Part shown: positions 30,523 to 59,853 of the stretch, in pieces
Numbering within the stretch: the first letter of the stretch is position 1
Layout: each line of letters starts with the position of its first letter
Source of the DNA: an uncultured Thermotogae bacterium
GTDB taxonomy: Bacteria > Bipolaricaulota > Bipolaricaulia > RBG-16-55-9 > JAJCYT01
Direction of reading: 5' to 3'
Assembly: GCA_964572855.1 (NCBI GenBank)
Contig: CAZNGF010000001.1
Span: 14,099-78,098, forward strand
DNA length: 64,000 nucleotides
Translations under genes and position numbers: made by a program
Notes under the pieces: model-generated
Seen by the model: the letters and a program-made list of their open reading frames with translations, nothing else
Told to the model about the DNA's origin: nothing
Databases searched by the model: none

Positions 30523-31754
30523 TCTGTCCGCCTCGGATCAGAGGCATCCGGATTTGGTCTTTGAAAAGTGAATAGAGTGTGCCGCAAGCGCAGTAAGGGC
30601 ACGTGGTGGATGCCTTGGCAGATGGAGGCGATGAAGGGCGTGGTAGGCTGCGATAAGCCGCGGGGAGCCGCCGAACAGGCTTTGATCCGTGGATGCCCGA
30701 ATGGGAGCACCCGCACCGCTGAAGGCGGTGGATCCAGGGCCGAAAATCTCAAGTAAGCTCTGGAGGCCAACCCGGGGAAGTGAAGCATCTCAGTACCCGG
30801 AGGAAGAGAAATCAACCGAGATTCCCCTAGTAGCGGCGAGCGAACGGGGAAGAGCCCAAACCCGATGTGCGCCAAGAGTGCAGTCGTTGCTCATCGGGGG
30901 TTGTAGGACGGCCCGTAAGGTCCCTGCATGGACCTTGAGGAGTTACAAACGCATCCTTTAGTTGAACGGCCTGCAAAGTCACTGGAAAGGGCGACCGGAG
31001 AAGGTGAAAGTCCTGTAAGCGAAAAGGGATGCGCTCCTCGTGGCTGGACCTGAGTAGCGTCGGACACGAGAAATCCGGCGTGAAGCTGGGAGGACCACCT
31101 CCCAAGGCTAAATACTCCCATCTGACCGATAGTGAACTAGTACCGCGAGGGAAAGGTGACAAGAACCCCTGACGGGGAGTGAAATAGAACCTGAAACCAC
31201 GTGCTTACAGACAGTGGAAGGGCCAAGGTCTTTTCGCTTCGGCGAATCGACCAGCCTGACCGCATGCCTTTTGCATTATGATCCTGCGAGTTATCGTATG
31301 TGGCAAGGTTAAGCCTCACTGGGGCGGAGCCATAGTGAAAGCGAGCCTGAATAGGGCGTGGAGTCACGTGCGATAGACCCGAAGCCGAGCGAACTAGCCA
31401 TGGCCAGGTTGAAGCACATGTGATAGTGTGTGGAGGACCGCACCGGTGGACGCTGAAAAGTCCTCGGATGAGCTGTGGTTAGCAGTGAAAAGCTAGACGA
31501 GTCTCGGTGATAGCTGGTTCTCCCCGAAATATATTTGGGTATAGCCTCAGGCATCGAAGCAAGCGGGGGTAGAGCACTGGTTGAATGCGGGGCAACCCAA
31601 TTTCAGTCAAACTTCGAATACCGTTTGTGAATTCCTGGGAGTCAGTCTATGGGGGATAATCTTCATGGACAAGAGGGAAACAGCCCGTAACCGCCAGCTA
31701 AGGTCCCCAAGTTTAGGCTAAGTGAAGAAGGATGTGCGATTGCTAAAACAGCTG

Positions 31755-31800
<46 letters not shown>

Positions 31801-32602
31801 CCACCAGTCTAGTGGTTGTGCGCCGAAGATGAAACGGGACTCAAGCCTAACGCCGAAGCTGCGGGCTCGGACCGCCTGCGGGCGGACCGAGCGGTAGGGG
31901 AGCATTCTGCAGTAGGATGAAGTCGGCCCGTGAGGGTCGATGGACGAGGCAGAAGTGAGAATGCAGGAATGAGTAGCGCGAGCTGAATGAGAAATTCGGC
32001 CACCGATTGCCCAAGGTTTCCTGGGGAAGGCTTATCCTCCCAGGGTTAGTCGGTCCTAAGCTGAATCCTTATCGGAGTAAGCGATGGACAACGGGTTAAT
32101 ATTCCCGTACCTCCGGTTGTGCGTTATCAGCAAAGGGGTGACGCTGTGGGCTGTACCGAGCGGGGTAACGGTTATCCCCGTGCAAGCGCCAAGGCGTCGG
32201 ACGCCAGGAAAATCCAGCGTCCGGTTAAGTCGAGGCGTGATGCGGAGGACCTAAGGGTCCGAAGGAAGGTAAGTCTGGAGCCAAGAAAAACCTCTAGCGA
32301 GTGCATCCGGAGACCGTACCGCAAACCGACACAGGTAGGCAGGTAGAGGATACCAAGGTGGACGAGATAACCCCTGTTAAGGAACTCGGCAAGTTGGCCC
32401 CGTAACTTTGGAAGAAGGGGTGCCTCTTGCGAAAGAGGCCGCAGTGAATAGGCTCTGGCGACTGTTTATCAAAAACACAGGATCCTGCTAACTCGAAAGA
32501 GGACGTATAGGATCTGAAGCCTGGCCACTACCGGAAGGTCAAGGGGAGGTGTGCAAGCACCAAACTGAAGCCCCGGAGAAGGCCGGCCGTAACTATAACG
32601 GT

Positions 32603-33279
32603 GGTTTTTGCTGCCGAAAACGGCCGTTGCAAAATCTAGCCATATGCTGGGACGGCTCACGTATCCCGATGCTACCGAGGAGGTTACAATGCATGGGCGG
32701 AGCTAATCAGCAGGAAAGGCTATCCGAGCACGAAACCAAATGGTTCCTTGCGGGTTTCATCGAAGGCGAGGGAAGCCTGTGTGTCTCGATCAAGGCGCAT
32801 CCCACCGCCAAGTTTGGGTACTATGTGGACCCGGAGTTCTTCATCTACCAACACAAGAGCGGGGTATCCGTTCTTAAGTTGGCCCAAGAGATCTTCGGGA
32901 CCGGAAGCATTCATCCCAAGCAGGGCAACGAGGATGTGCTGGTCTACGCGATCACGAGTCGGCGTAGCTTGAGAGAGCGGGTCATCCCTTTCTTTGAAAC
33001 CTACATGGTCTTGTCTGCAAAGCGCGATGTCTTTGAGAGATTCAGGGAGATCGTGATTGCCATGGAAGATCGCAAGGAGCATTTGACCCCTGATGGCTTG
33101 GCGCGCATCGTCGAGCAGGCGTATGCGATGAACCCGGCGAGTAAGGGGAAGCAACGCAAGCGTTCGTTGCAAGAAGTGACGGATAGAATCCTCAGAGGCC
33201 ATACGCTAGACCTCTCCCTCGAAGCGGGAGAGTGAAGAGATGGTCCGATCTTTGCAGCGATGCAAAGCTAACACAAATG
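32603..33279 (+). mobile_element. Intron in the 23S rRNA at the I-CeuI site (E. coli position 1923, helix 69/71 region); probably a group I intron
   Basis: The exon junction ...GGCCGTAACTATAACGGT | intron | CCTAAGGTAGCGAAATTCC reconstitutes the universal 23S sequence and the 26-bp I-CeuI recognition site. The 5' exon ends in U and the intron ends in G, as in group I introns. It contains a LAGLIDADG ORF. Confidence 0.8.
32693..33235 (+). CDS. LAGLIDADG homing endonuclease (single-motif, I-CeuI-like) encoded within the 23S intron
   Basis: The ATG at 32693 is preceded by GAGGAGG. The motif KWFLAGFIEGEGSLCVSI is a LAGLIDADG-type catalytic helix. The protein is about 181 aa. The track ORF from 32549 extends upstream into exon 1. 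Confidence 0.85.
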   Translation: MGGANQQERLSEHETKWFLAGFIEGEGSLCVSIKAHPTAKFGYYVDPEFFIYQHKSGVSVLKLAQEIFGTGSIHPKQGNEDVLVYAITSRRSLRERVIPFFETYMVLSAKRDVFERFREIVIAMEDRKEHLTPDGLARIVEQAYAMNPASKGKQRKRSLQEVTDRILRGHTLDLSLEAGE

Positions 33280-33317
<38 letters not shown>

Positions 33318-33628
33318 GCGCATGAATGGTATAACGACTGGAGCACTGTCTCAACAGGGGGCTCGGTGAAATTGAACTGCCGGTGCAAATGCCGGCAACC
33401 CGCGGTAGGACGAAAAGACCCCGTGGAGCTTTACTGGAGTTTGGCATTGGGGCTTGATGCATTTTGTGTAGGATAGGTGGGAGCCTTTGAAGCCGGGGCG
33501 CTAGTCTCGGTGGAGGCGTCCTTGAAATACCACCCTTTATGTATTGGGTCTCTAACCTAGCGTCGTGAAGAGCGGCGCGGGGACCGTGTTAAGCGGACAG
33601 TTTGACTGGGGCGGTCGCCTCCTAAAAA

Positions 33629-33661
<33 letters not shown>

Positions 33662-33785
33662 GTTAGCGATCAGCCATTGAGTGTAAGGGCATAAGGGAGC
33701 TTGACTGCGAGACCCACAAGTCGAGCAGGTGCGAAAGCAGGCCCTAGTGACCCTACGGCTTCTGTGTGGAAGGGCCGTGGATCAT

Positions 33786-33816
<31 letters not shown>

Positions 33817-33875
33817 AGTACCGCCCGAGAGTCCACATCGACGGCGGTGTTCGGCACCTCGATGTCGGCTCATCT

Positions 33876-33906
<31 letters not shown>

Positions 33907-34316
33907 CGTCTGTTCGCCGGTTAAAGAGGTACGTGAGCTGGGTTCAGACCGTCGCAAGACAGGTCGGTCCATATCCGCCGTGGGCGCAAGAAGCTTGAGA
34001 GGTTTTCTCCTCAGTACGAGAGGACCGGGAGGACCGGACCGCTGGTGTACCAGTTGTCCCGCCAGGGGCACCGCTGGGTAGCTATGTCCGGACAAGATAA
34101 GCGCTGAAGGCATCTAAGCGCGAAGCTTCCCTCGAGACAAGGCTTCTTAGACCCCTCCGAGACCAGGAGGTTGATAGGCCACAGGTGTACGCACGGTAAC
34201 GTGTTCAGCCGAGTGGTACTAATGGTCTATTGCTTGCACTATGCACACTCTATTCACTTTTGAGGGACCAAGTCCCCCGACTTGAAATTCGGCCCGCCAG
34301 GGGCGGGTCCACGGAC

Positions 34317-34434
34317 TTCAGGTGGCCATAGAGCAGGGGAAACACCCGTTCCCATCCCGAACACGGCAGTTAAGCCCTGCTTCGCCGATGGTACTAAGCT
34401 CGTAAGGGCTTGGAAGAGTAGGTTGCCGCCTGGA
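34317..34434 (+). rRNA. rrf: 5S ribosomal RNA
   Basis: GGTGGCCATAGAGCAGGGGAAACACCCGTTCCCATCCCGAACACGGCAGTTAAGCCCTGCTTCGCCGATGGTACT...GAGTAGGTTGCCGCC matches the bacterial 5S consensus and lies about 75 nt downstream of the 23S gene. Confidence 0.9.
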
Positions 34435-39015: not shown

Positions 39016-39615
39016 ATGCAAGCGACGCGCGTGGAACGGCTGACCGGGAAACACGTTGAGCCTTATCTGGAGGAACTGGCGCACCTGCGCATCACGGTGT
39101 TCCGCGAGTTCCCCTACCTCTACGACGGGGACATGGCCTACGAGGCCGACTACCTGCGCACCTACAGCGTCTCGCCCGAGAGCCTGTTCGTGCTCGTCTT
39201 CGATGGCGAACACGTCGTGGGGGCCGCCACCGGCGTACCGATGGCCGACGAGACGGAAGAATTCCGCCAACCGTTCGCTGAGAAGGGATATGATCCTGAC
39301 CGGATCTTCTACTTCGGCGAGTCCGTGCTGTTGAAACCGTATCGCGGCCGGGGGCTGGGCGTGCGCTTTTTCGCCGAGCGCGAGCGCTACGCCAGCGAGC
39401 TGGGCCGCTTCGACCACACCGCCTTCTGCGCGGTGCAACGCCCCGCCGACCACCCGAGCCGCCCGCCCGACTACGTCCCGCTGGACGCCTTCTGGCGCAA
39501 GCGCGGCTACGAGAAGACCGATCTAATCACGCACTACCCCTGGAAAGACCTGGGCCACGACGCAATGACCGAAAAGCCGATGGTGTTTTGGATCAAGCCA
39601 TTACTTGACTACTGA
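39016..39615 (+). CDS. GNAT-family N-acetyltransferase
   Basis: 199 aa with an acetyl-CoA-binding motif (LLKPYRGRGLGVRFF). TATACT lies 6 nt before the ATG, implying a leaderless transcript. Confidence 0.75.
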   Translation: MQATRVERLTGKHVEPYLEELAHLRITVFREFPYLYDGDMAYEADYLRTYSVSPESLFVLVFDGEHVVGAATGVPMADETEEFRQPFAEKGYDPDRIFYFGESVLLKPYRGRGLGVRFFAERERYASELGRFDHTAFCAVQRPADHPSRPPDYVPLDAFWRKRGYEKTDLITHYPWKDLGHDAMTEKPMVFWIKPLLDY

Positions 39616-40077
39616 AATTCGTGTTCAATCTACATCTGGCGTGAGCCAAGAATCTGGAATACCGGATTTATTTCGGATGATCACTACTTGCCCTAGTCTT
39701 CGTGCGCGTTGAATGCACTCTCTCTTCAGAGAGTTCATATCCTCACTTCGCTTTGTTGCTTTTTGATTTCCCTCTAGAAGATCCCTCCAGTACCTTTTCC
39801 CATCGTATTCTAGGAATCTGATCACAATATCATCCTTGCTAATCCCAGCAGATAACTTCTCCAAATCACCATCCAAAATAACAAGCCTGTCTTGGGCACC
39901 CAAGAAACGCTTCAGAATTTTCTCTTTGTTAATCATGATATAAATCCTTGCATAGCGATTTCAGCTTTGCAACCTCTCAATGTTCATGAGCACTTCGTTC
40001 CATTCTTGATAGATACATTCTAGACGCAGTTTAAGTTATTCATACTCAGGTAACAATAACACGCCCTATACTCCCCG
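39616..40077. other. AT-rich (~40% GC) islet between two convergent high-GC genes
   Basis: GC content drops abruptly within 10 bp of the GNAT stop and recovers at the ABC-F stop. The islet contains one ORF (39625-39936). Confidence 0.7.
39625..39936 (-). CDS. Hypothetical protein (ORFan) encoded in the low-GC islet
   Basis: 103 aa, MINKEKILKRFLGAQDRLVILDGDLEKLSAGISKDDIVIRFLEYDGKRYWRDLLEGNQ... Codon usage is AT-rich, unlike every other gene in the window. I recognise no domain. Confidence 0.45.
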   Translation of the reverse strand: MINKEKILKRFLGAQDRLVILDGDLEKLSAGISKDDIVIRFLEYDGKRYWRDLLEGNQKATKRSEDMNSLKRECIQRARRLGQVVIIRNKSGIPDSWLTPDVD

Positions 40078-42015
40078 CTAGGCTGCTGTTTGCTCCAGCT
40101 CAGAGGCGACTTGGTCCCAGGCGGCGTAGGCTTGGTTCAAGTCGGACTTGGCCGCTTCGTAGTCCGACGAGGTCGCGTTGATCCGTTCCAAGTCCTGCGC
40201 GTAGCTGGCCGCCTCCAAGTCCCGTTCCAGCTCGGCGATGCGCGCCTCCAGCGCCTGAATCCGCTCGGCCAGCTCGGCCTCGCGGCGGTGGAGCTTGGCG
40301 CGCTCGCGCTCTTGCAGGCGCTTGCGCTTGCCGGGGGTCATCTTCTTGTCCTTGGGCTTGGCCGCACGGTCCTGGGCGGATGCCGACGAAGCCGCGCGCA
40401 CGCTCACTTCTTTCTTGCGCCGATAGAAGTCGTAGTCGCCCTTGTAGAGGTGCAGTTTCCCGTCGGCGTCCACCTCCCAGACTTGCGTGGCCAGCGTCTG
40501 GATGAAGGTGCGGTCGTGTGAGACGAACAGGATCGAGCCCTGAAAGCTTTTGAGCACCTGCTCCAGGATCTCGCGCGCCGGGATGTCCAGGTGGTTGGTG
40601 GGCTCGTCCAGCAACAGCAGGTTGCCGCCGAGCTGGGCCAGGCGCGCCAGCGCCACGCGGCTGCGCTCGCCGCCCGACAGCTCCTCCAGCTTTTTGAAGA
40701 CCTCGTCGCCCGAGAACAGGAACTGGCCCAGCAGGTTGCGCGCCTTGGGGATGGTCCAGCCGGGCTGGTCGATGAGCGCGTCCACCAGCGTCCCATCGCG
40801 CTCGAAGTAGTCCCAGGTCGCCTGCGCGAAGTAGGCCAATTCCACCGCGTGGCCCCACTCGGCCGCGCCCTTGAGCGGATGGAGCTGACCCGCCAGCGTC
40901 TTGAGCAGCGTCGTCTTGCCGCTGCCGTTGGGGCCCACGAGCGCAACGCGCTCCCCGCGGTCCAGGATGGCGTGCTCGATCTCGAACAACTCAGTCGGCC
41001 CGCCGCCCGGCTCGCTCTTTGGGTAGCCCACGCTCACGCCCTGCAGGCGGAAGACGCGCTGGCCGCTGGGGCGCGTGAAGCCGATCTCGAAGGCGATGCG
41101 CTTGTCCTCGGGAGGGGGGGCGACCCGCTCAAGCTTTTCGAGCTGCTTGCGGCGCGACTGCGCCTGGCCCGTGGTCTTCTTGTCGACGATGTTGCGCCGG
41201 ATGAAGTCCTCGGTCTTTTGGATGTAGGCCTGCTGGGCGTAGTACGCCTCCCACTGGTGTTCAATCTCCTCGTCCCGCTGGGCCACGAACGCCGCGTAGT
41301 TGCCCGTATAGACTTTGAGCCGGCCGTGGTCCACCGACCAAATGCGCTCGGCGGCGCGGTCGAGTAGGTGCCGGTCGTGCGAGGAGATCACGTAGGCGCG
41401 CTTCCAGCGGCCCAGAAAGCCCTCGAGCCACTCCAGCGCCGCGAAGTCGAGGTGGTTGGTGGGCTCGTCCAGCAGCAGCACGTCGGGCTCCTCCAGCAGG
41501 AGCTTGGCCAGCGAAGCCCGTGCGGCCTGGCCGCCGCTCAAGTGCGCCACGGGCATGCCCTTGTCTTCAGAGGCGAACCCGAGGCCGTCCAGCACGGCGT
41601 GCACGCGGCTCTCGACCTCGTAGCCGCCGCCGGTCTCGAAGGCGTGGCGCAGCTCGTCGTAGCGGTGCAGCAGCGCCGCGTCGCCGTCGGCCAGTTGGGA
41701 CTCCAGCGCGCGTATCTCGGCCTCCATGTCCTTGAGCGAGGCGAACACGCTGCGCAGCTCGTCGAGCAGGCTGAGCTCGCCCTGCAGCTTGGCCTCCTGG
41801 GTCAGGTAGCCCACGCGGGCCGAGCCGATGACCTGCACGCGGCCCGCGTCCGGCTCGTCGCGCCCGGCCAGCAGGTTGAGCAGCGTCGTCTTGCCGCTGC
41901 CGTTGGGACCCACCAGGCCGATGCGGTCGCCCGCGCCGATCTGGAGCGAGACGCCCGCGAACACGGGGTCGGCGCCGTAGCGCTTGGCGAGCTCGTGGGC
42001 CATCAACAGCGACAT
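40078..42015 (-). CDS. ABC-F family ATPase (tandem ABC domains, Uup/YheS-like, C-terminal coiled coil)
   Basis: 645 aa with two Walker A motifs (GPNGSGKTT) and two LSGG signatures. The charged coiled-coil tail (LHRREAELAERIQALEARIAELERDLE) is typical of Uup-class ABC-F proteins. There are no TM domains. Confidence 0.88.
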   Translation of the reverse strand: MSLLMAHELAKRYGADPVFAGVSLQIGAGDRIGLVGPNGSGKTTLLNLLAGRDEPDAGRVQVIGSARVGYLTQEAKLQGELSLLDELRSVFASLKDMEAEIRALESQLADGDAALLHRYDELRHAFETGGGYEVESRVHAVLDGLGFASEDKGMPVAHLSGGQAARASLAKLLLEEPDVLLLDEPTNHLDFAALEWLEGFLGRWKRAYVISSHDRHLLDRAAERIWSVDHGRLKVYTGNYAAFVAQRDEEIEHQWEAYYAQQAYIQKTEDFIRRNIVDKKTTGQAQSRRKQLEKLERVAPPPEDKRIAFEIGFTRPSGQRVFRLQGVSVGYPKSEPGGGPTELFEIEHAILDRGERVALVGPNGSGKTTLLKTLAGQLHPLKGAAEWGHAVELAYFAQATWDYFERDGTLVDALIDQPGWTIPKARNLLGQFLFSGDEVFKKLEELSGGERSRVALARLAQLGGNLLLLDEPTNHLDIPAREILEQVLKSFQGSILFVSHDRTFIQTLATQVWEVDADGKLHLYKGDYDFYRRKKEVSVRAASSASAQDRAAKPKDKKMTPGKRKRLQERERAKLHRREAELAERIQALEARIAELERDLEAASYAQDLERINATSSDYEAAKSDLNQAYAAWDQVASELEQTAA

Positions 42016-52184: not shown

Positions 52185-52213
52185 TTGACTTGGGAAGCAA
52201 GTTAGGCTATGTT
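52185..52213 (+). promoter_or_regulatory. Putative promoter of the lipoprotein gene: TTGACT, 17-nt spacer, TATGTT
   Basis: Near-consensus -35 and -10 boxes with 17-nt spacing, about 80 nt upstream of the ATG at 52292. Confidence 0.45.
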
Positions 52214-52216
52214 TGC

Positions 52217-52250
52217 TTCATCTCATCTCATCTCATCTCATCTCATCTCA
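52217..52250. repeat. Pentanucleotide microsatellite (TCTCA)6 in the 5' UTR of the lipoprotein gene
   Basis: ttcaTCTCATCTCATCTCATCTCATCTCATCTCA is six perfect units plus a partial unit. It lies between the -10 box and the Shine-Dalgarno (AAAGGAG). Confidence 0.9.
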
Positions 52251-52291: not shown

Positions 52292-55060
52292 ATGCACGGG
52301 CTCGAGCGTCGGGTCGTGTGCGGGTTGGCGTTGCTGTTGGCGCTGGGGGCGTTGGCGGGGTGCGCGCAGTTCTCGGGGTGGTTCCGGGACGCGCCCGAGG
52401 GGGTGGCGGCCTCGTTCGAGGGGAGCTACGCCTGGGAGATGCTGGGGGTCGAGCGGGGCAAGCAGCCCCAGGCCTGCGGCGCGGCGCTGGGGGCCCAGGC
52501 GGCCAAGGCCAAGGCGCAGGAGCTGCTGAGCCGGATGCGCGAGGCCCAGCAGTTGCAGGCGCTGCTGGGGGCGCGGGGCAAGCCGCTCAAGCTGGGCAAG
52601 GCGGCGGCCTGCCGGGTCAAGCGCGACCAGCCGAAGCGCGGACGCGGGGTGGCCTTGCAGGACGGCGGCCCAACCGGCGAGGAGGAGATCGGCACGCTGG
52701 TCGAAATCCCGGCCGGCAGCGACGCGGCGCTCTACCTGGCCGAGGTGTATGATGAGGGCGAAAGCTGGGCCTCGATCAAGGAGGTCGACCCCGAGGGCGA
52801 GCGCCTGGTGCAAATCGAGACGCTCGTGCCCGAGGACTACGATCTGGAGCCGGAAGGGGAGCTGAGCGTGGGCGAGGTGCCTTGGTTCCTGCCGGGCGAG
52901 ACGGGCAGCGGCGAGTTGATCGCCGAGGTGCTGGAGGGGCTGGCCGAGGCGGGGCCGGAAGGGTGGGTGTTCCGGCCGGCGGCGCTGGCCGAAGCCGATC
53001 CGGCGTACCTGGCGTTTGCGCAGGAGGCCAGCGACCCGGAGCTGGACTGGAGCCAGGCGGACGCGATCGTCGACGAGGAGAGCGAGGAGTTGGTGTTGTT
53101 CGTGCCGTCGGCGGGGGCGGTGGCCGCGGGCGAGGCGTTGTGGGGCTCGCGGTTGAGCTTCCTGGACGACGGCCATTCGCTAGCGGTGCGGGCGCCGGTG
53201 CGGCGCGTGACCCGGCCCGCGACCAACACGCAGCGCTGGACGGTGCAGCGCAACACGACCACGCAACGCCCGACAATCCGCAGCACGATCCGGACGCGCC
53301 ACCTGCCCCAGCCGTTTGGGTTGTGTCCCTACCAGCACTACGGCCGCCTGTCACGGGCCAAGAAAGCGCTCTGCAACACGTGGGAACAGAGGCATCAGCC
53401 CAAGGTCAACCGGGTCAAGTTCAAGTCGGCGAAGAAGAACGTGCGGGAGACGAGCCAAAAGACCGTGCAAACGTTGAATGCCAACGCCAGCGTGATCGGC
53501 TTGAGCGGCAAGAACGCCAACCTCGTGTTGGCCGGCTTCAAGGACGTCTCACAGGAGCGGATCGACAAGTTCTATCAGGAAGCGGCCCGCGCGGCGGCGT
53601 CAGGGGCCAACCAGACCAACGGCCTGCTGAGGTTCCCCTTCATCGCGGACAACGATCGGTTGCCGGATGACCGGCTCTCGCCGCCGGAAGACACAATTTC
53701 GACAGCGGTCAATGCGACGTGCTCGTTTGCCAGTGACTTGATTGGCCAAATTACACGTGTAGGGGAAAATACGATTGATGCTATCTGCTTCATTCTGGGC
53801 GAGATGAACGGTTGGCGAGAAGTCCAATCTGTGCAAGAACAAGCAGACTTACGTGAAGGAATAAATAGAATCGCAAGTCAAGCTTTTGGTGTAGAGGTGT
53901 TTACATTAGGCGATATAGAGAAACGCATTTTAGGGATAGAAAATGCAGGTCTTTCTTCAGATGAAAGGCAACAGGTCAACAGCTTCCTCGGTCAATTGGA
54001 ACAACTGTTACAGCAACAGATGGGAACAGAATCCCTGGAGGCAAGCAAAGTATTGGCTACAGCGCTGTTTGGGTTGAGACAAGCATTTCGTGCTTCTCAT
54101 ACTGAAGCTGATGCAATCGGGAACGGTCAGCTCTTCGTCAAAAGCATGATCGACGAGATGGGCCCAGAGCTGTTCTTGATGATTCACTTCATGCAACAAG
54201 CAACTTCAGAACTGACTTGGAATATCAATGCCGACTGGGAGCGCCATATCCCTGTGCAGGACTTCGCTACGTTGGGGAAGTTCCTCGACATGCTCAAGAG
54301 CAAAGACATCATCAACACGGACAACGCCGTCAAGCTGATCACATTTGTGGGCGTCTTCTCCCAGCTCGCGCTGGAGAACGGCATGACGTTTGAGGTGAAG
54401 GAAGCGCTGGCCCGCGCGGGTTTCCTGGCCGAACTGGCCGTGGAAGCCCAAGTCGCAGGTTACAATACCGCGCAACAATTTGAGGTGCTCACCGAGATCG
54501 GAGGAGAGTCGGTCGATTTCAAGTTTCAGTCTTTAAAGCTGAGAATAGAAGACAAGACAACGTTTATCACGGGTATCGTGGTGCCTTTCTTGAAAGACGG
54601 GGTCGCAGTCAAGGGGTTGATTGAGAGGATCAAGAAAGTAGACAAGGCGCTTGAAGGCAGCGCAGGGAACGCTCCCCAATTGATCGTCGTGGTCGTCCAA
54701 CAAGCCAGCGAGGCCAATGTGAACGAGTTGTGCGCGGACGTGCGTTCCGGGCGTACGTTTGCGTTCGTGGTGGTCATCGTCAACGGGCGCGTGGCCCTGA
54801 ACGGGACGTGTCACAGCATCGACAGCTCGGTCAATGACAAGCTGCTGGGTTCTGGGCGTGATGGGGGCGATGTAGCCCAAGGGGTCTGTGACCTGGAGGT
54901 CACGCTCTGCGGAGGCGAAACGGACACGTCTTCATCCGGCGGTGGGGGAGCCAGCGCACCGCCGGTGATCGTGAGCCTGCCCCTGCCGCCCGAGGTGCTG
55001 TGTCCGGGAGGCGGCGCGTGCTTGACCCCGGAAGGGAAGAGGCTGTGGCTGGGTGACTGA
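52292..55060 (+). CDS. Large lipoprotein of unknown function; its C-terminal ~330 aa are paralogous to the downstream gene
   Basis: Lipobox MHGLERRVVCGLALLLALGALAGC. The N-terminal half is acidic. The C-terminal module is shared with 55144-56334 (RIAS...SSDER.Q.NSFL.QLEQLLQQ...GQLFV...MGP.LFLM.HFMQQATS.L.WN ... CADVR..RT.AFVVV..NGR...LLG.GR...QVCDLEVTLCG). Codon position 3 is GC-rich except in the 53690-54300 segment. Confidence 0.75.
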   Translation: MHGLERRVVCGLALLLALGALAGCAQFSGWFRDAPEGVAASFEGSYAWEMLGVERGKQPQACGAALGAQAAKAKAQELLSRMREAQQLQALLGARGKPLKLGKAAACRVKRDQPKRGRGVALQDGGPTGEEEIGTLVEIPAGSDAALYLAEVYDEGESWASIKEVDPEGERLVQIETLVPEDYDLEPEGELSVGEVPWFLPGETGSGELIAEVLEGLAEAGPEGWVFRPAALAEADPAYLAFAQEASDPELDWSQADAIVDEESEELVLFVPSAGAVAAGEALWGSRLSFLDDGHSLAVRAPVRRVTRPATNTQRWTVQRNTTTQRPTIRSTIRTRHLPQPFGLCPYQHYGRLSRAKKALCNTWEQRHQPKVNRVKFKSAKKNVRETSQKTVQTLNANASVIGLSGKNANLVLAGFKDVSQERIDKFYQEAARAAASGANQTNGLLRFPFIADNDRLPDDRLSPPEDTISTAVNATCSFASDLIGQITRVGENTIDAICFILGEMNGWREVQSVQEQADLREGINRIASQAFGVEVFTLGDIEKRILGIENAGLSSDERQQVNSFLGQLEQLLQQQMGTESLEASKVLATALFGLRQAFRASHTEADAIGNGQLFVKSMIDEMGPELFLMIHFMQQATSELTWNINADWERHIPVQDFATLGKFLDMLKSKDIINTDNAVKLITFVGVFSQLALENGMTFEVKEALARAGFLAELAVEAQVAGYNTAQQFEVLTEIGGESVDFKFQSLKLRIEDKTTFITGIVVPFLKDGVAVKGLIERIKKVDKALEGSAGNAPQLIVVVVQQASEANVNELCADVRSGRTFAFVVVIVNGRVALNGTCHSIDSSVNDKLLGSGRDGGDVAQGVCDLEVTLCGGETDTSSSGGGGASAPPVIVSLPLPPEVLCPGGGACLTPEGKRLWLGD

Positions 55061-55143
55061 GACGGCGCTGCTCTGCGCGCGGGAAGGAGCGCTCTGGCCA
55101 GCGGGCCGGGGCGCTTCGCTCACGGCGTGCTAAGGAAACCAAC

Positions 55144-56334
55144 ATGAACAGGCCAGGGCAACAGCAGTGGGTGTTCATTGTGATCTTGGTGATATTGGCG
55201 TTGTGGATGTTGAATGACATAACTGTTTGGCAGGGAAGACAGCAGGTTAGAGATCAGTCAGATCTGCGTGACGCATTATTTAGAATTGCAAGTGCAGCAC
55301 TTGCTGTTGCAGATATCACTAGAGAAGATATTGAGGAGCGGTATTTAGGAGAAGCTAGGTGGGTTTCCTCAGATGAAAGGCATCAGTTAAATAGTTTCCT
55401 TATTCAATTGGAGCAATTGCTTCAGCAGGAGTCGACAACCAAAAACCTAGAGGCAAGCCAGGTATTGTCTGGCACCTTGTTGGGGTTAGGCCAGGCATTT
55501 CGTGCTTCTCATGCTGAAGCTGATGCGATTGTAAACGGTCAACTCTTCGTTGAGAATTTACTCGACCCCATGGGCCCGGGGCTGTTCCTGATGCTGCACT
55601 TCATGCAGCAAGCGACCTCGCAACTCGCTTGGAATACCAACAGCACCGACTGGGAAAGCTACATTCCCGTACAAGACTTCGCCGCGCTGGGGACGTTCCT
55701 CAACATGCTCAGGAACGAGACCACGATCAACACGGACAACGCCGTCGCGCTCCTCTCGCAGGTGGGCCGCTTGTCCCAGCGCGCGCTGGGAGAGGGACCC
55801 ACGCCTCAGATCAAGCAAGCGCTGGCCCGTGCGGGCTTTCTGACCGAACTGGCTGTCGAGGCCCAAGCCGCGGGTCTGAGGACCAGCTGGGACTTTGCGG
55901 TCTTGGGCGAGATCGAAGGCGAGCCGCTCGACTTCACGCTCCGCTCGCGCCGCTTGGTCGCGGGCGACGAGCCCACGCCCGTCGCAGGGCTGGTGCAGCC
56001 CGCCCTGGTCGATGAGGCCGGGGCCCAGGCGCTGTGGGCACGGATCAACGCAACGGACAACGCCCTCCGCTCCAAGCGCGCGGCCGACCTGCTGGCCGTG
56101 CTGGTGGCGCAGGCCGGGGAGGCGTCGCTCGCGGCGCTGTGCGCGGACGTGCGAGCCCAGCGGACACACGCCTTCGTGGTCGTCGTGGCCAACGGGCGCA
56201 CGGCCTGCCACAGCGCCCAAAGCACGGCGGATGCCAAGCTGCTGGGCGCCGGGCGCGCCCGAGCCGAGCTGGCCCAGCAGGTCTGCGACCTGGAAGTCAC
56301 GCTCTGTGGGAATGAAAGAACCGTTGGTCGTTGA
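55144..56334 (+). CDS. Membrane-anchored paralog of the C-terminal module of the upstream lipoprotein (unknown function)
   Basis: 396 aa with an N-terminal TM anchor (WVFIVILVILALWML). It is co-linear with the module of the 52292-55060 protein and ends with the same QVCDLEVTLCG motif. The first ~420 nt are markedly AT-rich. Confidence 0.75.
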   Translation: MNRPGQQQWVFIVILVILALWMLNDITVWQGRQQVRDQSDLRDALFRIASAALAVADITREDIEERYLGEARWVSSDERHQLNSFLIQLEQLLQQESTTKNLEASQVLSGTLLGLGQAFRASHAEADAIVNGQLFVENLLDPMGPGLFLMLHFMQQATSQLAWNTNSTDWESYIPVQDFAALGTFLNMLRNETTINTDNAVALLSQVGRLSQRALGEGPTPQIKQALARAGFLTELAVEAQAAGLRTSWDFAVLGEIEGEPLDFTLRSRRLVAGDEPTPVAGLVQPALVDEAGAQALWARINATDNALRSKRAADLLAVLVAQAGEASLAALCADVRAQRTHAFVVVVANGRTACHSAQSTADAKLLGAGRARAELAQQVCDLEVTLCGNERTVGR

Positions 56335-56472
56335 GATCGATTGCACGCTGATGTCGCGGTATTATCACGGAGTTAGGGCTGTTGGCGCATAGGAGATGTT
56401 GTGAAATCTCGGAATTGAGCATGGTGCCCAGTGGTGCTGTCCTGGATCAATTGGTCACGGTAGGGGGCTTGG

Positions 56473-57546
56473 TTGCACAGCGAAGCGAGACGGATTCTTG
56501 TCGTCAACACCGGCGGCACGATCATGATGGTGCGCGACGGCGACGATCCCAGCTCGCCCTGGCGGCCCGGGGACTACGCGCGCGTGACGCGGGACTACCC
56601 GGCGCTCTCCGCGCTTCCGTTCGAGCTCACCTTCCACAGCTTCGACCCGCTGATCGACTCCTCGGACATGACCGAGGCCGGCTGGCGCGAGATCGCGGGG
56701 GTGATCGGGCGGCACTACGACCGGGTCGACGGCGTCGTCGTGCTGCACGGCACGGACACGATGTGCTACACGGCCGCGGCGCTCTCGTTCCTGCTCGAAA
56801 ACCTGGGCAAACCCGTCGTGCTGACGGGCGCGCAGCTCCCCCTGATCGTCCCGCGCAGCGACGGGCTGCAGAACTTCGTGACCGCGCTCTGCATCGCGGC
56901 CGGTCTCGACGTGAGCGACGGGGGCGCGCTGCCCCCCCTGCCCGAGGTCTGCATCTACTTCGGCGGCAAGCTGCTGCGGGGCAACCGGGCGCGCAAGCTG
57001 AGCGCGAGCGCCTACGCGGGCTTCGAGTCGCCCAACTTCCCGCCGCTGGGCGCGGTGGGCAAGCGCATCGAGCTCGACGCAAAACGCATACGCCCGCTGC
57101 CTGACGGGCCGTTTCGCGCCGGCTCGGCGCTCGACACGCGCGTGATGACCCTGGACCTGTTCCCCGGTTTCGACCCGGATTGGTTTCAAACCCTGGTCAC
57201 GCACGAGGCCGCCGACGGCCCCGGCGCGCGCGGGCTCGTGCTCAAGACGTTCGGGGCCGGCAACGCGCCCACGAGCCGGCGCTTCCTGGACGCGCTGGCA
57301 TCGGTCCGCGAGCGCGGGATTCCGGTCGTCAACGTGTCGCAGTGCCCGCAAGGAGCAGTCGAGCTCGGGGCCTACCAGGCCAGCGTCGGGATGCTGGAGG
57401 CGGGCGTCATCAGCGGGCTCGACCTGACCCCCGAGGCCGCGCTCTGCAAGCTCATGTGGCTGCTGGGCCGGGGGCTCGATCGGGAAGCGATCGCACGAGA
57501 AATGGGGCGCTCCCAGCGCGGCGAAGGGGGCGCGCCCCCCGACTGA
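56473..57546 (+). CDS. ansA: L-asparaginase, type I (cytoplasmic)
   Basis: A TGGTI catalytic threonine motif near the N-terminus (ILVVNTGGTIMM), HGTDTM, and type-I asparaginase architecture. The start is probably TTG at 56473, with AGGGGG 5 nt upstream. Confidence 0.85.
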   Translation: MHSEARRILVVNTGGTIMMVRDGDDPSSPWRPGDYARVTRDYPALSALPFELTFHSFDPLIDSSDMTEAGWREIAGVIGRHYDRVDGVVVLHGTDTMCYTAAALSFLLENLGKPVVLTGAQLPLIVPRSDGLQNFVTALCIAAGLDVSDGGALPPLPEVCIYFGGKLLRGNRARKLSASAYAGFESPNFPPLGAVGKRIELDAKRIRPLPDGPFRAGSALDTRVMTLDLFPGFDPDWFQTLVTHEAADGPGARGLVLKTFGAGNAPTSRRFLDALASVRERGIPVVNVSQCPQGAVELGAYQASVGMLEAGVISGLDLTPEAALCKLMWLLGRGLDREAIAREMGRSQRGEGGAPPD

Positions 57547-57547
57547 C

Positions 57548-58330
57548 TTAAGCGCTTGAGCCGATGACCTCGATCATCGCCCCGTGCACGCGGCCGTTGG
57601 AGGCCACGATCTCGCCGCGGCCCAGGTCCGGTTTGTGGCCGGCGAAGTCGCTCACGCGCCCGCGGGCCTCTTCGACCGCAAGCGCGCCGGCGGCCACGTC
57701 CCAGGGTTGCAGGTTGAACTCCCAGAAGCCGTCCAAGCGCCCGGCCGCCAGCCAGCACAGATCGAGCGCGGCCGCGCCGTTGCGGCGGATCCCCTGCGCT
57801 TGATGCGCGAAGCGCCCGAACAGCTCCAAGGCGCGCGCCATGCGCTCGCGTTGATACGGGAACCCCGTGGCCAACAGGCTTTCGGACAACGTTCCGATCG
57901 CCGACACGCCGATCGGCTTCCCGTTGAGCGTCGCGCCGCCGCCGCGGGCGGCCACGAACGTCTCGCCCAGGACCGGCGCCTGCACGACGCCCAGGATCGG
58001 CTCGCCGTCGCGCTCGAGCGCGATCGAGACGCAGAAGAACGGGTTGGCGTGCGCGAAGTTGGTCGTGCCGTCCAGCGGGTCGACTACCCAGCGGTAGGGT
58101 GAGTCGCTGCGGCGGTCCACGCCCTCCTCGGACAACACGGCGTGCTCGGGGAAGCGCGCCGCCAGCACGTCCAACACGGCCTCCTGCGCGCGGCCGTCGT
58201 ACTCGGTCAGCAGATCCGTGGCGCTGCTCTTGGTGCGGACGGCGCCGGCCCGGCCGAAGCCGCTCAAGAGCACCTCGCCGGCGCGCGCTGCGGCGTCCAG
58301 CGCCGCTTGTCTCAGAGCGTCCAGGTCCAC
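57548..58330 (-). CDS. Inositol monophosphatase family protein (SuhB/IMPase-like)
   Basis: About 260 aa from a GTG start (VDLDALRQAALDAAARAG...). Motifs WVVDPLDGTTNF and the GRLDGFWEF region are present. The track ORF (348 aa) runs on into surE. Confidence 0.8.
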   Translation of the reverse strand: MDLDALRQAALDAAARAGEVLLSGFGRAGAVRTKSSATDLLTEYDGRAQEAVLDVLAARFPEHAVLSEEGVDRRSDSPYRWVVDPLDGTTNFAHANPFFCVSIALERDGEPILGVVQAPVLGETFVAARGGGATLNGKPIGVSAIGTLSESLLATGFPYQRERMARALELFGRFAHQAQGIRRNGAAALDLCWLAAGRLDGFWEFNLQPWDVAAGALAVEEARGRVSDFAGHKPDLGRGEIVASNGRVHGAMIEVIGSSA

Positions 58331-59085
58331 GCGCGCATCGCCTCCAGCAGCTTCGGGTCGGTGCGGTTCAGGCTCAGCGGCGTGACCGTGACCCAGCCCG
58401 CGTGGAGCCGGGCGTAGTCGCCGCCGTCGTCGTGGTCGTCCAAAATCTTTTTGTGCTCCTTGATCAGCACGCGGCGCCCGTTTTCGGAAGGCCCCCACTC
58501 GAAGTGCGGCAGATAGCGCTGCATGGCCTGGGTGCCGCTCCAGATCCCGCGCACGCGCTCGGGCGGCAGCGCGGGCAGGTTGACGTTGAGGCACGTCCCC
58601 GGCGGCAGCTCCTGCGCGAGCACCTGGTCCAGCACGAGCGCGCTCAGGCGCGCCGCCTCCTCCAGGTCCGGCGCCTCCCCGTCGAGCAACTGCAGCGAGA
58701 ACGCGATCCCGCGGTGCCCCTGCAGCGCCCCCTCGCAGGCCGCCCCGATCGTGCCGGAGTAGAACGCGTCCACCCCCACGTTGGCGCCCAGGTTGATGCC
58801 CGAAACGACCCAGTCCACCTCGCCTTCCAGGAAGAGCGCGACCTTGACGCAGTCCACCGGCGTGCCCGCGACCGCGTAGGCGGGTTGCCGCTGGAACAGC
58901 TCGACCTGGCGGAAGGCGACGGGGCCCCGGTGCGTGAAGGCGTGGCTCGAGCCGCTGCGCTCGGCGTCCGGCGCGGCCACGACCAGCGCGCCGCGGGAGG
59001 CCAGCACCCGCGCCAGCGCGCGCAGGCCGGCGGAGTCGATCCCGTCGTCGTTGGACAACAAAAAACGCGTGCTCATGTGCCTCAC
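58312..59085 (-). CDS. surE: 5'/3'-nucleotidase SurE
   Basis: The FLLSNDDGIDSAGL N-terminal motif gives a full-length SurE. Confidence 0.88.
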   Translation of the reverse strand: MRHMSTRFLLSNDDGIDSAGLRALARVLASRGALVVAAPDAERSGSSHAFTHRGPVAFRQVELFQRQPAYAVAGTPVDCVKVALFLEGEVDWVVSGINLGANVGVDAFYSGTIGAACEGALQGHRGIAFSLQLLDGEAPDLEEAARLSALVLDQVLAQELPPGTCLNVNLPALPPERVRGIWSGTQAMQRYLPHFEWGPSENGRRVLIKEHKKILDDHDDGGDYARLHAGWVTVTPLSLNRTDPKLLEAMRAWTWTL

Positions 59086-59115
59086 TCCGTGTCGTCTGGG
59101 GAATGGGAGAGCGGG

Positions 59116-59853
59116 TCAGCGTCCCAACAAGAGCCGATTATACAGGGATTGGGGCAGATTCGCCTCCCGCACGGCCGGGGCCGCGCGCTCGACGTCGTAT
59201 TCGAGCCGGTGAAAGGTGACGGTCTCCTCGCTCCCGGTTCGCTCGTACACCGCGAACGCCAGGCGCCAATCGCCGTCGCGCGGCTGGCCCACGCTGCCGG
59301 GGTTGAGCAGGTAGCGCGCGTCGGGTTCCAGCGCCAGCGTCTGGCAGCCGGGCACCCCGCCGCCGTCCACGTCGTTGTCCCGTTCGACGAAGACGGTGGG
59401 CACGTGCGAGTGCCCGAACCAGCAGAGCCGCTGCTCGACGTGGCGGAAGCTGAGGTAGGCCGTGCGGCGGTCGGTGACGTATTCCCAGAGGGGATCGCGC
59501 GGGCTGCCGTGCGTGACGAACATGTCGCGATGGGCGGTCTGTGGCGGGCAGCCTTTGAGGAACTCCAGGGACGCGTCGGACAGCTGCGCGCGCGTCCAGC
59601 GGGCGGCCGCCGCGGCCGTGCCGTTGAAGCGTGCCAGCTCGATCTCGCCGACGACCGCCGCGTCGTGGTTCCCCTGCAGGCACAGCTCGCAGCGCGCACG
59701 CACGCGCGCGACGCACTCGTCCGGCCACGGGCCGTAGCCCACCACGTCACCGCAACAGAGGACGGCCTCGACCCCCTGTTCGTCGAGCGCCGCCAGCGCC
59801 GCCTCGAGCGCCGGGAGGTTGCCGTGCACGTCGGAGATGAGGCCGAGCTTCAT
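59116..59853 (-). CDS. Metallophosphoesterase (calcineurin-like, YfcE/MJ0936 family)
   Basis: Motifs MKLGLISDVHGN, GDVVGYG, GNHD and GHSH. Confidence 0.85.
   Translation of the reverse strand: MKLGLISDVHGNLPALEAALAALDEQGVEAVLCCGDVVGYGPWPDECVARVRARCELCLQGNHDAAVVGEIELARFNGTAAAAARWTRAQLSDASLEFLKGCPPQTAHRDMFVTHGSPRDPLWEYVTDRRTAYLSFRHVEQRLCWFGHSHVPTVFVERDNDVDGGGVPGCQTLALEPDARYLLNPGSVGQPRDGDWRLAFAVYERTGSEETVTFHRLEYDVERAAPAVREANLPQSLYNRLLLGR

What the first reader, a model, noticed from the sequence alone, without database searches (positions are those of the whole stretch)
53690..55600. Sharp low-GC (~45-50%) segments embedded in the coding sequence of both paralogs
Every other gene in the window is about 68% GC with a strong G/C third-position bias. 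Inside the 52292-55060 gene, GC collapses over about 53690-54300. In the downstream paralog it collapses over about 55144-55600. In both genes the low-GC stretch covers the same homologous protein segment (RIAS ... HFMQQATS). Within it the two copies share near-identical DNA runs, for example GCATTTCGTGCTTCTCAT(A/G)CTGAAGCTGATGC. Downstream of the segment both genes return to high GC while protein similarity continues.

This mosaic pattern implies that a sub-module was recently acquired from a low-GC donor, or exchanged between the copies by gene conversion, and has not yet ameliorated.
Basis: seen in the sequence. Interest (0 to 1): 0.65.

Follow-up and report, generated by a model that had tools for sequence, protein, structure and literature searches.

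The report
AT-rich hypervariable cassette in paired envelope genes
The two low-GC patches are real and mark the fast-diverging, exchangeable middle section of a rare, uncharacterised cell-envelope protein pair; every known relative shows the same patch, so it is a standing trait of the family and not a one-off fresh import.

Summary
Confirmed. GC3 falls to 0.2-0.5 at homologous positions of lipoprotein gene A (about 53690-54230) and of the downstream membrane-anchored paralog B (about 55180-55560). Other genes in the window average 0.91 (sd 0.07).

It is not an assembly chimera. A separate Logan assembly is 99.985% identical across all junctions, and two other metagenomes show the same mosaic.

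The troughs coincide with the hypervariable helical region (HVR) of a rare family with no Pfam, NCBIfam or PDB match. The family has 55 representatives among 1.84 billion proteins and is multi-copy in a Ca. Fraserbacteria MAG. All four intact B-type modules have HVR GC3 of 0.43-0.44, against 0.72-0.90 downstream, and their fine-scale profiles correlate.

B and its nearest counterpart are 53.5% identical in the HVR and 86.8% downstream (p=2e-28). A and B are about 65% identical in both. The segment is therefore an exchangeable, fast-diverging cassette.

A recent one-off import is not supported. Recent A-B gene conversion is not supported either (dS about 1.2; the 32-nt run has p about 0.03). 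Even so, HVRs within one genome are each other's closest relatives.

No donor was found. The cause of the AT-richness is unresolved: either a lower-GC allele pool or escape from GC-biased conversion.

The parts
52185..52213 (+). Sigma-70-like promoter candidate upstream of gene A (TTGACT, 17-nt spacer, TATGTT)
   Evidence: Consensus scan; sequence read. A consensus match only, not shown to be functional.
52218..52250 (+). Perfect pentanucleotide repeat (TCATC) x6.6 in the presumed leader of gene A. It is the only short-unit perfect repeat in the 64-kb window and a possible slipped-strand phase-variation site.
52292..55060 (+). Gene A, a 922-aa lipoprotein with lipobox LAGC (Cys24). It has a conserved N-domain (residues about 25-440), a helical variable middle and a conserved alpha/beta C-domain, followed by a Gly/Pro-rich tail with terminal cysteines.
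53690..54230 (+). Low-GC tract of A, corresponding to the hypervariable helical region (residues about 467-646). GC3 is 0.2-0.5 and GC 0.43-0.50.
54231..54919 (+). C-domain of A, homologous to B residues 160-391. GC3 is 0.8-0.9, with a second milder dip (0.6-0.7) at 54450-54700, where A is most divergent from B. Its amino-acid composition is of the low-GC type (GARP 0.23, FYMINK 0.23).
55132..55136 (+). AAGGA ribosome-binding site, 7 nt upstream of the ATG of B
   Evidence: Read from the sequence. The 5' flank and start region are 78-85% identical in the L002 copies.
55144..56334 (+). Gene B, 396 aa: an N-terminal membrane anchor (residues about 9-28, maximum KD19 of 2.5), then the HVR, then the conserved C-domain. 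The version held from NCBI (P0003, 254 aa) starts after the low-GC part and is probably a truncated gene call.
   Evidence: dN/dS of 0.25 in the low-GC part shows that it is coding.
55205..55536 (+). Hypervariable core of B, inside the low-GC tract (about 55180-55600). It is 53.5% identical to L002 copy 2, against 86.8% downstream. AlphaFold predicts helices, but with pLDDT below 50.
55537..56316 (+). Conserved part of B (GC3 0.8-1.0). It includes an alpha/beta domain with four conserved cysteines, modelled at pLDDT 75-91 over residues 260-380.

Best explanation
The two low-GC tracts are the hypervariable region (HVR) of a two-gene envelope module. Gene A is a lipoprotein and gene B a membrane-anchored paralog of A's C-terminal half.

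The HVR is a predicted helical stretch. It lies between the anchor (in A, the N-domain) and a conserved, cysteine-containing alpha/beta C-domain. It behaves as a cassette. It is bounded by conserved flanks: the 5' start/anchor region and the MGPxLFLMLHFMQQATS block. It diverges, or is replaced, far faster than those flanks, and it tends to be matched between paralogs of the same genome.

Its AT-richness (GC3 about 0.44, locally 0.2) is a long-standing property of the cassette pool and is shared by every known relative.

Inferred cause, my preferred sub-hypothesis (about 55:45 over the alternative): alleles this divergent cannot form heteroduplex with one another. The cassette therefore escapes the recombination-linked GC-enriching force that keeps the rest of the genome at GC3 of about 0.9. 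It then sits near the AT-biased mutational equilibrium, possibly helped by hitch-hiking under diversifying selection.

The alternative is that the cassette pool is replenished from lower-GC relatives of the Fraserbacteria/Bipolaricaulota type.

Shown: the trough, its conservation across homologs, its coincidence with hypervariability, the decoupled histories, purifying selection on the segment, and that it is not an assembly artefact.

Inferred: cassette exchange by recombination in the flanks, the cause of the AT-richness, and an extracytoplasmic recognition or assembly role.
For: The trough is real.

The same trough sits at the same alignment columns in A, B, L002 copy 2 and L003. HVR GC3 is 0.43-0.44 in all four, against 0.72-0.90 downstream. 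Fine-scale GC3 profiles inside the HVR correlate at r=0.44-0.81, even between copies that are near saturation there. L002 copy 1 shows the same low-GC 5' part and high-GC 3' part in raw GC.

HVR against flanks: B-c2 is 53.5% against 86.8% nt (p=2e-28), B-c1 is 54.7% against 77.6%, and B-L003 is 50.9% against 69.3%. For B-c2, dS is 1.81 against 0.24 and dN 0.50 against 0.11. The breakpoint at about 55537 coincides with the GC3 transition.

GC3 rises with amino-acid conservation along the module (rho 0.56, p=0.02). The same holds among six Fraserbacteria paralogs (rho 0.54, p=0.004). There the conserved N-part has GC3 of 0.65-0.78 and the variable half 0.42-0.6, in a 55% GC genome. Import from low-GC donors cannot easily explain that pattern inside a low-GC genome.

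The segment is coding: dN/dS is 0.25-0.28 and the ORF is open in four of five modules.

Within-genome HVR similarity is shown.

Locus dynamics: a decayed remnant of a window-type A 3' end lies downstream of a different A allele plus a beta-helix gene in L003.

A separate assembly is identical.

The recombination-GC3 link in bacteria is reported in PMC4450053.
Against: There are only five close modules, from three sources, and no population data.

A simple F81 amelioration estimate allows the present GC3 of 0.44 if the segment began at 0.1-0.2 when A and B split. An old import that is still ameliorating is therefore not excluded.

A's whole C-terminal half has a low-GC-type amino-acid composition. 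The ERZ869940 locus carries a large GC3 0.40-0.47 block between host genes at 0.95-0.96. Both point to lateral input from lower-GC lineages.

The 277-nt stretch D1 is as similar between A and B (75%) as the adjacent GC-rich D2, yet it stays AT-rich. A pure 'too divergent to recombine' argument does not predict this.

The function of the proteins is unknown. There are no Pfam, NCBIfam or PDB sequence hits and no significant fold hit. The HVR model has low confidence.
Confidence: 0.6

Rival explanations
1. One reading: a sub-module was recently taken up from a low-GC donor by this genome, spread between A and B by gene conversion, and has not yet ameliorated.
For: The composition boundaries are sharp. 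A and B have each other as closest HVR relative. There is one 32-nt run with a single mismatch. The family is richest in lower-GC Fraserbacteria/Bipolaricaulota MAGs at 52-60% GC. A low-GC cassette displaced the resident allele in ERZ869940. GC1, GC2 and GC3 of the tract (0.58/0.36/0.44) fit a genome of roughly 45-50% GC. That last point is my inference from the published regressions of codon-position GC on genome GC (own knowledge).
Against: A-B dS in the tract is about 1.2. A-B nt identity is 65% inside and outside the tract (p=0.78), so there has been no recent conversion. The same trough is present in five modules from three sources, which would need repeated imports with identical breakpoints. 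No donor was detected in any collection. The most AT-rich sub-part (GC3 about 0.2) is also the most diverged between A and B. That is the opposite of what shared descent under amelioration predicts.
Confidence: 0.2
2. The AT-richness is selected at the nucleotide or mRNA level. Possible reasons are slow translation or weak mRNA structure for membrane targeting or folding, an embedded regulatory element, or an antisense element.
For: The GC3 profile is position-specific and conserved among homologs that are near saturation. B's tract begins at its 5' end, next to the membrane anchor.
Against: In A the tract is internal, about 1.4 kb from the start codon. GC1 and GC2 are also depressed and the amino-acid sequence itself is hypervariable, so no conserved nucleotide element is being preserved. 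The gathering-threshold Rfam scan of the whole window matched only the 23S and 5S genes. Promoter-like hits inside the tracts are weak 9-of-12 consensus matches.
Confidence: 0.07
3. The tract is diversified by targeted hypermutation, either by a diversity-generating retroelement or by another localised mutator with AT bias.
For: Both dS and dN are raised five- to seven-fold in the tract between B and L002 copy 2.
Against: A-B mismatches are spread over all bases, with no adenine-specific template/variable-repeat pattern. The divergence includes indels and unalignable stretches. The flanking genes that were scanned are housekeeping. Not every ORF in the window was screened for a reverse transcriptase.
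Confidence: 0.05
4. The pattern is an assembly or binning chimera, or contamination.
For: None was found. The contig appears to come from a poorly sampled lineage: its SecA forms a cluster of its own at 90% identity.
Against: The Logan assembly of SRR7048221 is 99.985% identical over 6858 nt spanning all four junctions. The reading frame and protein homology run through every junction. The same mosaic occurs in a JGI and an ENA metagenome.
Confidence: 0.01

Closest known systems
Rhs / CdiA polymorphic-toxin loci with C-terminal displacement (Jackson et al. 2009, PMC2935791; Poole et al. 2011, PMC3150448)
   Same: There is a composition discontinuity inside one ORF at the border between conserved and variable parts. 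The conserved and variable parts have decoupled histories. A partial paralogous copy lies just downstream. In the ERZ869940 relative, a decayed remnant of the old 3' end has been shunted downstream of the incoming allele. PMC2935791 describes displaced tips, and GC peaks that mark core fragments.
   Different: Here the variable part is an internal helical region and the extreme C-terminal domain is conserved across the family. There is no VENN or PxxxxDPxGL border motif and no YD repeats. No immunity-type gene follows: the downstream gene is a paralog of the C-terminal half, and in relatives it is a beta-helix protein. No toxin domain was detected.
Surface proteins with a hypervariable region between conserved parts, such as the flagellin central domain, the streptococcal M-protein HVR and Myxococcus TraA (own knowledge, not tested here)
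   Same: An allele-specific, fast-diverging segment is flanked by conserved sequence that allows replacement by homologous recombination. The location is the cell envelope. The composition is often atypical.
   Different: There is no sequence or fold relationship. The HVR here is proximal to the anchor, not distal. It is co-matched between two paralogous genes in one genome.
Phase-variable multigene lipoprotein families such as Mycoplasma Vlp/Vsp (own knowledge, not tested here)
   Same: The proteins have a lipobox and a conserved N-terminus with a variable remainder. There are many paralogs per genome in Ca. Fraserbacteria. Simple repeats lie by the promoter or leader: (TCATC)6.6 here, and C8-C9 tracts just upstream of the -35 box of three paralogs (C5 in a fourth).
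   Different: There are no tandem-repeat C-terminal regions. Length variation of the repeats has not been observed. This genome has only one full copy plus one partial copy.
Recombination-associated GC enrichment (GC-biased gene conversion) in bacteria (Lassalle et al. 2015, PMC4450053)
   Same: Segments that can recombine are GC3-rich, and the segment that cannot is GC3-poor. The effect is strongest at third codon positions.
   Different: That work compares whole genes. Here the contrast would be within a single gene and far larger (0.44 against 0.9). Recombination rates were not measured here.

Membership tests
Uncharacterised lipoprotein family found here (A-like; Ca. Fraserbacteria/Bipolaricaulota paralogs) | Homologous N-domain (profile positions 1-440) behind a lipobox | tested here: met
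   An HMMER profile search gave 55 hits, many covering positions 1-440. A tblastn search gave 11 loci in MAGs. LAGC lipobox at residues 21-24.
Uncharacterised lipoprotein family found here (A-like; Ca. Fraserbacteria/Bipolaricaulota paralogs) | Conserved C-terminal alpha/beta domain with conserved cysteines, and a Pro-rich tail ending in a Cys motif | tested here: met
   Sequences, alignments, model pLDDT of 75-91.
Uncharacterised lipoprotein family found here (A-like; Ca. Fraserbacteria/Bipolaricaulota paralogs) | Secreted right-handed beta-helix gene immediately downstream | tested here: not met
   Present in L005, L006, L010, L014, L015 and L001+L003. Absent from the window, where B follows A directly.
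Polymorphic toxin systems (Rhs/CdiA type) | Variable extreme C-terminal toxin domain after a conserved border motif (VENN, PxxxxDPxGL) | tested here: not met
   The motifs are absent. The extreme C-domain is the conserved part. No toxin family hit.
Polymorphic toxin systems (Rhs/CdiA type) | Small cognate immunity gene directly downstream | tested here: not met
   The downstream gene B is a 56%-identical paralog of A's C-terminal half.
Polymorphic toxin systems (Rhs/CdiA type) | Displaced or orphan 3' fragments downstream, and a composition break at the conserved/variable border | tested here: met
   Remnant of an A 3' end in L003 at 1342-1680. GC3 breaks.
Diversity-generating retroelement target | Template/variable repeat pair differing at adenines of the template | tested here: not met
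   A-B mismatches in the tract involve A 45, C 26, G 35 and T 21 on the A side, and include indels.
Diversity-generating retroelement target | Nearby reverse transcriptase gene | not tested
   Only the flanking genes were scanned, and they are housekeeping. The whole window was not screened.
Recently acquired genomic island | Identifiable donor, or near-identical copy elsewhere | tested here: not met
   No hit for the tract or the proteins in the genome, metagenome and viral contig collections, plasmids or phages. The best HVR hits are A and B themselves.
Recently acquired genomic island | tRNA or integrase borders, mobility genes | tested here: not met
   No tRNA in the window. The neighbours are SecA, a class II aminoacyl-tRNA synthetase, asparaginase, inositol monophosphatase and SurE.
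Phase-variable lipoprotein families (Vlp/Vsp-like) | Simple repeat in the promoter or leader whose length varies | tested here: inconclusive
   The repeats are present. Length variation could not be tested because the only second assembly (L004) starts at window position 52384, downstream of the repeat.

The most novel reading that the evidence does not exclude
The helical HVRs of A and B are matched specificity determinants of a strain-specific recognition or assembly system, in a poorly sampled lineage that shares this family with Ca. Fraserbacteria/Bipolaricaulota. Their AT-richness arises because such divergent alleles escape GC-biased gene conversion. If so, this single gene pair shows the gap between the AT-biased mutational equilibrium (GC3 of about 0.2-0.4) and the recombination-driven genomic GC3 (about 0.9) within one reading frame.
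Probability: 0.15. Interest if true: 0.7.

Novelty: new member of a known kind. Interest (0 to 1): 0.42.

Why it matters
Compositional troughs inside genes are routinely read as fresh horizontal transfer. Here the trough is conserved at the same place across diverged homologs and tracks local variability. It is therefore a marker of a hypervariable cassette and does not date an acquisition.

The finding flags a new polymorphic envelope-protein family with no annotation, in a candidate-phylum-type lineage. It also corrects a likely truncated gene call for B. With population data it would give a clean within-gene test of whether recombination-linked GC enrichment, and not selection on codons, maintains very high GC3 in bacteria.

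Tried and rejected
Searches that found nothing:
- The genome-contig scan with B alone found nothing.
- The metagenome scan with the B-type alignment found nothing, and the one with the A-type alignment gave a single partial locus.
- The viral contig scan, plasmid and phage blastn of the tract, and plasmid tblastn of A were all empty.
- The evalue-threshold Rfam scan was run only on the AT-rich spot at 39400-40150 and found nothing. It was not run on the A/B tracts.
- Cluster look-ups gave no names or accessions, so the organism stays unidentified.

Searches limited by the tools:
- The 22-sequence family alignment was too divergent for a locus scan.
- As a word-index query that alignment returned only P0001 and P0002. 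As a result I could not fetch DNA for P0006 and the other representatives.

Function:
- Pfam, NCBIfam, a PDB profile search and Foldseek against PDB gave no significant match.
- The weak top fold hits, restriction-endonuclease-like with E of 0.06 or worse, were not pursued.
- The full-length A model was too poor to use (pLDDT 40.8).

Hypotheses rejected or left undecided:
- A DGR-type origin was rejected on the mismatch spectrum.
- Recent gene conversion was rejected on uniform A-B identity and a marginal run test.
- An F81 amelioration calculation was meant to exclude an old import but proved inconclusive.

Full report
OBSERVATION. The window is about 69% GC. Its genes have GC3 of about 0.9. 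Gene A (52292-55060, +, 922 aa) and gene B (55144-56334, +, 396 aa) lie in tandem. B aligns to A residues 500-876 at 56% amino-acid identity.

GC in 200-nt windows drops to 0.43-0.50 at 53700-54300 and to 0.43-0.51 at 55100-55600. In frame, GC3 drops from 0.87-1.0 to 0.23-0.5 in A (53700-54210) and to 0.2-0.6 in B (55200-55590). Across 1386 fifty-codon windows of the other 39 ORFs, GC3 averages 0.91 (sd 0.074, minimum 0.52). A reaches 0.22 and B 0.26.

The troughs occupy the same homologous protein segment, and their GC3 values track each other window by window. The only other large low-GC block in the window is the 23S/5S rRNA.

NOT AN ARTEFACT. A Logan assembly of run SRR7048221 (L004) is 99.985% identical to window 52384-59241. 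It spans both troughs and all four junctions. The reading frame and the protein homology continue through the junctions. Two other metagenomes contain the same mosaic, as described below.

WHAT THE GENES ARE. A begins with a signal peptide and an LAGC lipobox. B begins with a hydrophobic anchor and has an AAGGA ribosome-binding site 7 nt upstream of its ATG.

Neither protein matches Pfam or NCBIfam at a meaningful level. A PDB profile search and Foldseek against PDB also gave nothing significant.

A full HMMER profile search of 1.84 billion representative proteins returned only 55 hits. Many are 750-950-aa proteins that share A's N-domain (profile positions 1-440). Inspection of the sequences shows that they also share a C-terminal alpha/beta domain with conserved cysteines and a Pro-rich tail ending in a Cys motif. 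Their middles are very different.

In the GTDB species representatives the family appears in MAGs labelled Ca. Fraserbacteria and Ca. Bipolaricaulota. One 55% GC MAG has nine matching loci. The window's own genome is not among the representatives. Its SecA forms a cluster of its own at 90% identity among 15 billion proteins, so this is a poorly sampled lineage.

The AlphaFold model of B gives a confident alpha/beta C-domain (pLDDT 75-91 over residues 260-380). The low-GC part is predicted helical, but with low confidence (pLDDT below 50 over residues 23-146).

The architecture of A is therefore lipobox, N-domain, helical variable middle, conserved C-domain and tail. B is membrane anchor, variable middle and conserved C-domain.

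THE TROUGH IS A FAMILY TRAIT AND COINCIDES WITH HYPERVARIABILITY. The close relatives are:
- P0002, A-like, on L001;
- P0005, B-like, on L003. L001 and L003 come from ENA sample ERZ869940 and overlap end to end;
- two tandem B-like copies on L002. L002 is from JGI metagenome 3300023214, an accession cited in a study of Namib Desert salt-pan microbial mats.

Every one shows a low-GC 5' part and a high-GC 3' part. On a common alignment the GC3 profiles of A, B, L002c2 and L003 run in parallel. The minimum is 0.15-0.38 at columns 75-105, there is a shoulder of about 0.5 at columns 120-150, and values rise above 0.8 from column 210. HVR GC3 is 0.43-0.44 in all four, against 0.72-0.90 downstream. 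Inside the HVR alone the profiles correlate at r=0.44-0.81.

The low-GC tract is the hypervariable part:

| Pair | HVR, nt identity (55205-55536) | Downstream, nt identity | Fisher p |
|---|---|---|---|
| B vs L002c2 | 53.5% | 86.8% | 2e-28 |
| B vs L002c1 | 54.7% | 77.6% | 2e-12 |
| B vs L003 | 50.9% | 69.3% | 4e-8 |
| A vs B | 65.3% | 66.4% | 0.78 |

For B-c2, dS is 1.81 against 0.24 and dN 0.50 against 0.11. The jump in identity at about 55537 coincides with the GC3 transition. The 5' start and anchor region is conserved again, at 78-85%.

The tract is under purifying selection (dN/dS 0.25-0.28), so it is coding. The 254-aa version of B held from NCBI (P0003) is most likely a start called too far downstream, because the gene model did not accept the AT-rich 5' part.

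GC3 rises with amino-acid conservation along the module (rho 0.56, p=0.02). The same relation holds among six paralogs of the 55% GC Fraserbacteria MAG. Their conserved N-part has GC3 of 0.65-0.78 and their variable half 0.42-0.60 (rho 0.54, p=0.004).

A AGAINST B. Between A and B there is no discontinuity: 65.3% identity in the HVR and 66.4% downstream (p=0.78). Ungapped repeats show 75% identity both in the low-GC stretch (53952-54228 against 55364-55640) and in the adjacent GC-rich stretch. A-B dS in the tract is about 1.2.

The 'near-identical run' is a single 32-nt stretch with one mismatch. Its p is 0.026 under codon-column shuffling. The longest perfect run (21 nt) lies in the GC-rich part. 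Recent gene conversion is therefore not supported.

In the HVR, paralogs of the same genome are nevertheless each other's closest relatives. A-B is 0.57 and c1-c2 0.48, against 0.31-0.45 across genomes. In the conserved part B is closest to L002c2 (0.82) and A is the outlier (0.51-0.57). This incongruence requires one of three things: HVR-specific exchange or co-selection within genomes, replacement of the HVR in one lineage, or a much faster clock in the HVR.

DONOR SEARCH. The best matches of the A and B HVRs anywhere are each other. Next come a 107-aa fragment (P0039, 36-42%) and P0005. There are no hits in the Fraserbacteria paralogs. Plasmid, phage and viral collections give nothing.

LOCUS DYNAMICS. 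In all the MAG loci examined (L005, L006, L010, L014, L015) and in L001+L003, the A-like gene is followed by a secreted right-handed beta-helix protein. The window lacks that gene.

In L003 there is a decayed copy of a window-type A 3' end, with an in-frame stop, together with the A-B intergenic region. It lies between the beta-helix gene and the B-like gene. In that genome a different A allele has displaced the resident one. Its C-half and its beta-helix partner have GC3 of 0.40-0.47, and they sit between host genes at 0.95-0.96. This resembles the C-terminal displacement described for rhs loci (PMC2935791). It shows that lateral input of lower-GC cassettes does occur in this family.

WHY AT-RICH. 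There are two non-exclusive causes.

(a) Escape from the GC-enriching force. Bacterial mutation is AT-biased (own knowledge). Recombining genes have higher GC3 (PMC4450053). A cassette whose alleles are too divergent to form heteroduplex would relax towards the mutational equilibrium. Three observations support this:
- the trough recurs at the same place;
- GC3 correlates with conservation even within a 55% GC genome;
- the most AT-rich sub-part (GC3 about 0.2) is also the most diverged between A and B, which is the reverse of what amelioration under shared descent predicts.

(b) A lower-GC allele pool. Three observations support this:
- the displacement in ERZ869940;
- the low-GC-type amino-acid composition of A's whole C-half (GARP 0.23, FYMINK 0.23, against 0.35-0.36 and 0.12-0.15 in A's N-domain and B's C-domain);
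- the mutual consistency of GC1, GC2 and GC3 in the tract.

An F81 estimate from fourfold sites shows that a segment starting at GC3 of 0.1-0.3 at the A-B split would now be at 0.42-0.53. The observed 0.44 therefore does not exclude an old import. I favour (a) slightly.

REJECTED ALTERNATIVES.
- A DGR-type origin: there is no adenine-specific mismatch pattern.
- Nucleotide-level selection: the tract is internal in A, and its sequence is itself hypervariable.
- A chimera.

COMPARISON AND VERDICT. The locus works like other polymorphic envelope loci. It has conserved flanks, an exchangeable variable cassette, displaced remnants, atypical composition and a possible contingency repeat. It fails the defining tests for Rhs/CdiA toxins: there is no border motif, the conserved part is the extreme C-domain, and there is no immunity gene.

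It is a new, unannotated family showing a known kind of phenomenon. Interest is moderate at 0.42. The main value lies in correcting the reflex that equates low GC with recent transfer, and in offering a within-gene test case for recombination-linked GC enrichment.

Noticed in passing
window 30583-34434: The 23S rRNA gene spans 3658 nt against a 2925-nt Rfam model. An internal ORF (32549-33235, 228 aa) hits the LAGLIDADG homing-endonuclease family (E 2.4e-17). The 23S therefore probably carries an intron or insertion with a homing endonuclease. The 23S-5S pair has no 16S upstream, where a LytR-CpsA-Psr gene lies instead, and the window has no tRNA.
   Followed up: partly
window 52218-52250; L005, L006, L009 and L012 just upstream of the A-like genes: A perfect (TCATC)x6.6 repeat lies between a promoter-like site and the start of A. 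It is the only such repeat in the 64-kb window. Three Fraserbacteria paralogs carry C8-C9 tracts immediately upstream of a TTGACA -35 box, and a fourth (L009) carries C5. These are possible slipped-strand phase-variation sites.
   Followed up: partly
window 55144-55569: The version of B held from NCBI (P0003, 254 aa) starts at about residue 143, which skips the AT-rich, membrane-anchor-encoding 5' part. The longer ORF has an RBS, a conserved start in three other loci and dN/dS of 0.25. The short call is probably an annotation artefact of a GC-trained gene finder.
   Followed up: yes
L003 1342-1743 (with L001): A decayed remnant of a window-type A 3' end plus the A-B intergenic region lies between a beta-helix gene and the B-like gene. 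It has an in-frame stop. L001 and L003 overlap by 67 nt and form one island of about 8.8 kb. Its GC3 is mixed (0.4-0.87), and it is flanked by host genes at 0.95-0.96.
   Followed up: partly
L005, L006, L010, L014, L015, L003 (gene downstream of each A-like gene): Each A-like lipoprotein gene is followed by a secreted right-handed beta-helix (PF13229/NosD-like) protein with a conserved C-terminal ENEF..N..GDLCP motif. The window's locus lacks this partner.
   Followed up: partly
L002 40-1282: The first of two tandem B-like copies has a frameshift or short deletion at about 350-390, inside its hypervariable region. It is either a pseudogene or a sequencing error.
   Followed up: no
window 54450-54700 and A residues 470-880: A has a second, milder GC3 dip (0.6-0.7) where it is most divergent from B. 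Its whole C-terminal half has a low-GC-type amino-acid composition even where GC3 is high, as if synonymous sites had been GC-enriched faster than the protein.
   Followed up: partly
window 39600-40050: A 400-nt AT-rich spot (40-43% GC) lies between two GC-rich genes. It contains a 104-codon ORF on the minus strand (39936 to 39622; the 103-aa product was scanned) with no Pfam match, and the region has no Rfam match.
   Followed up: partly
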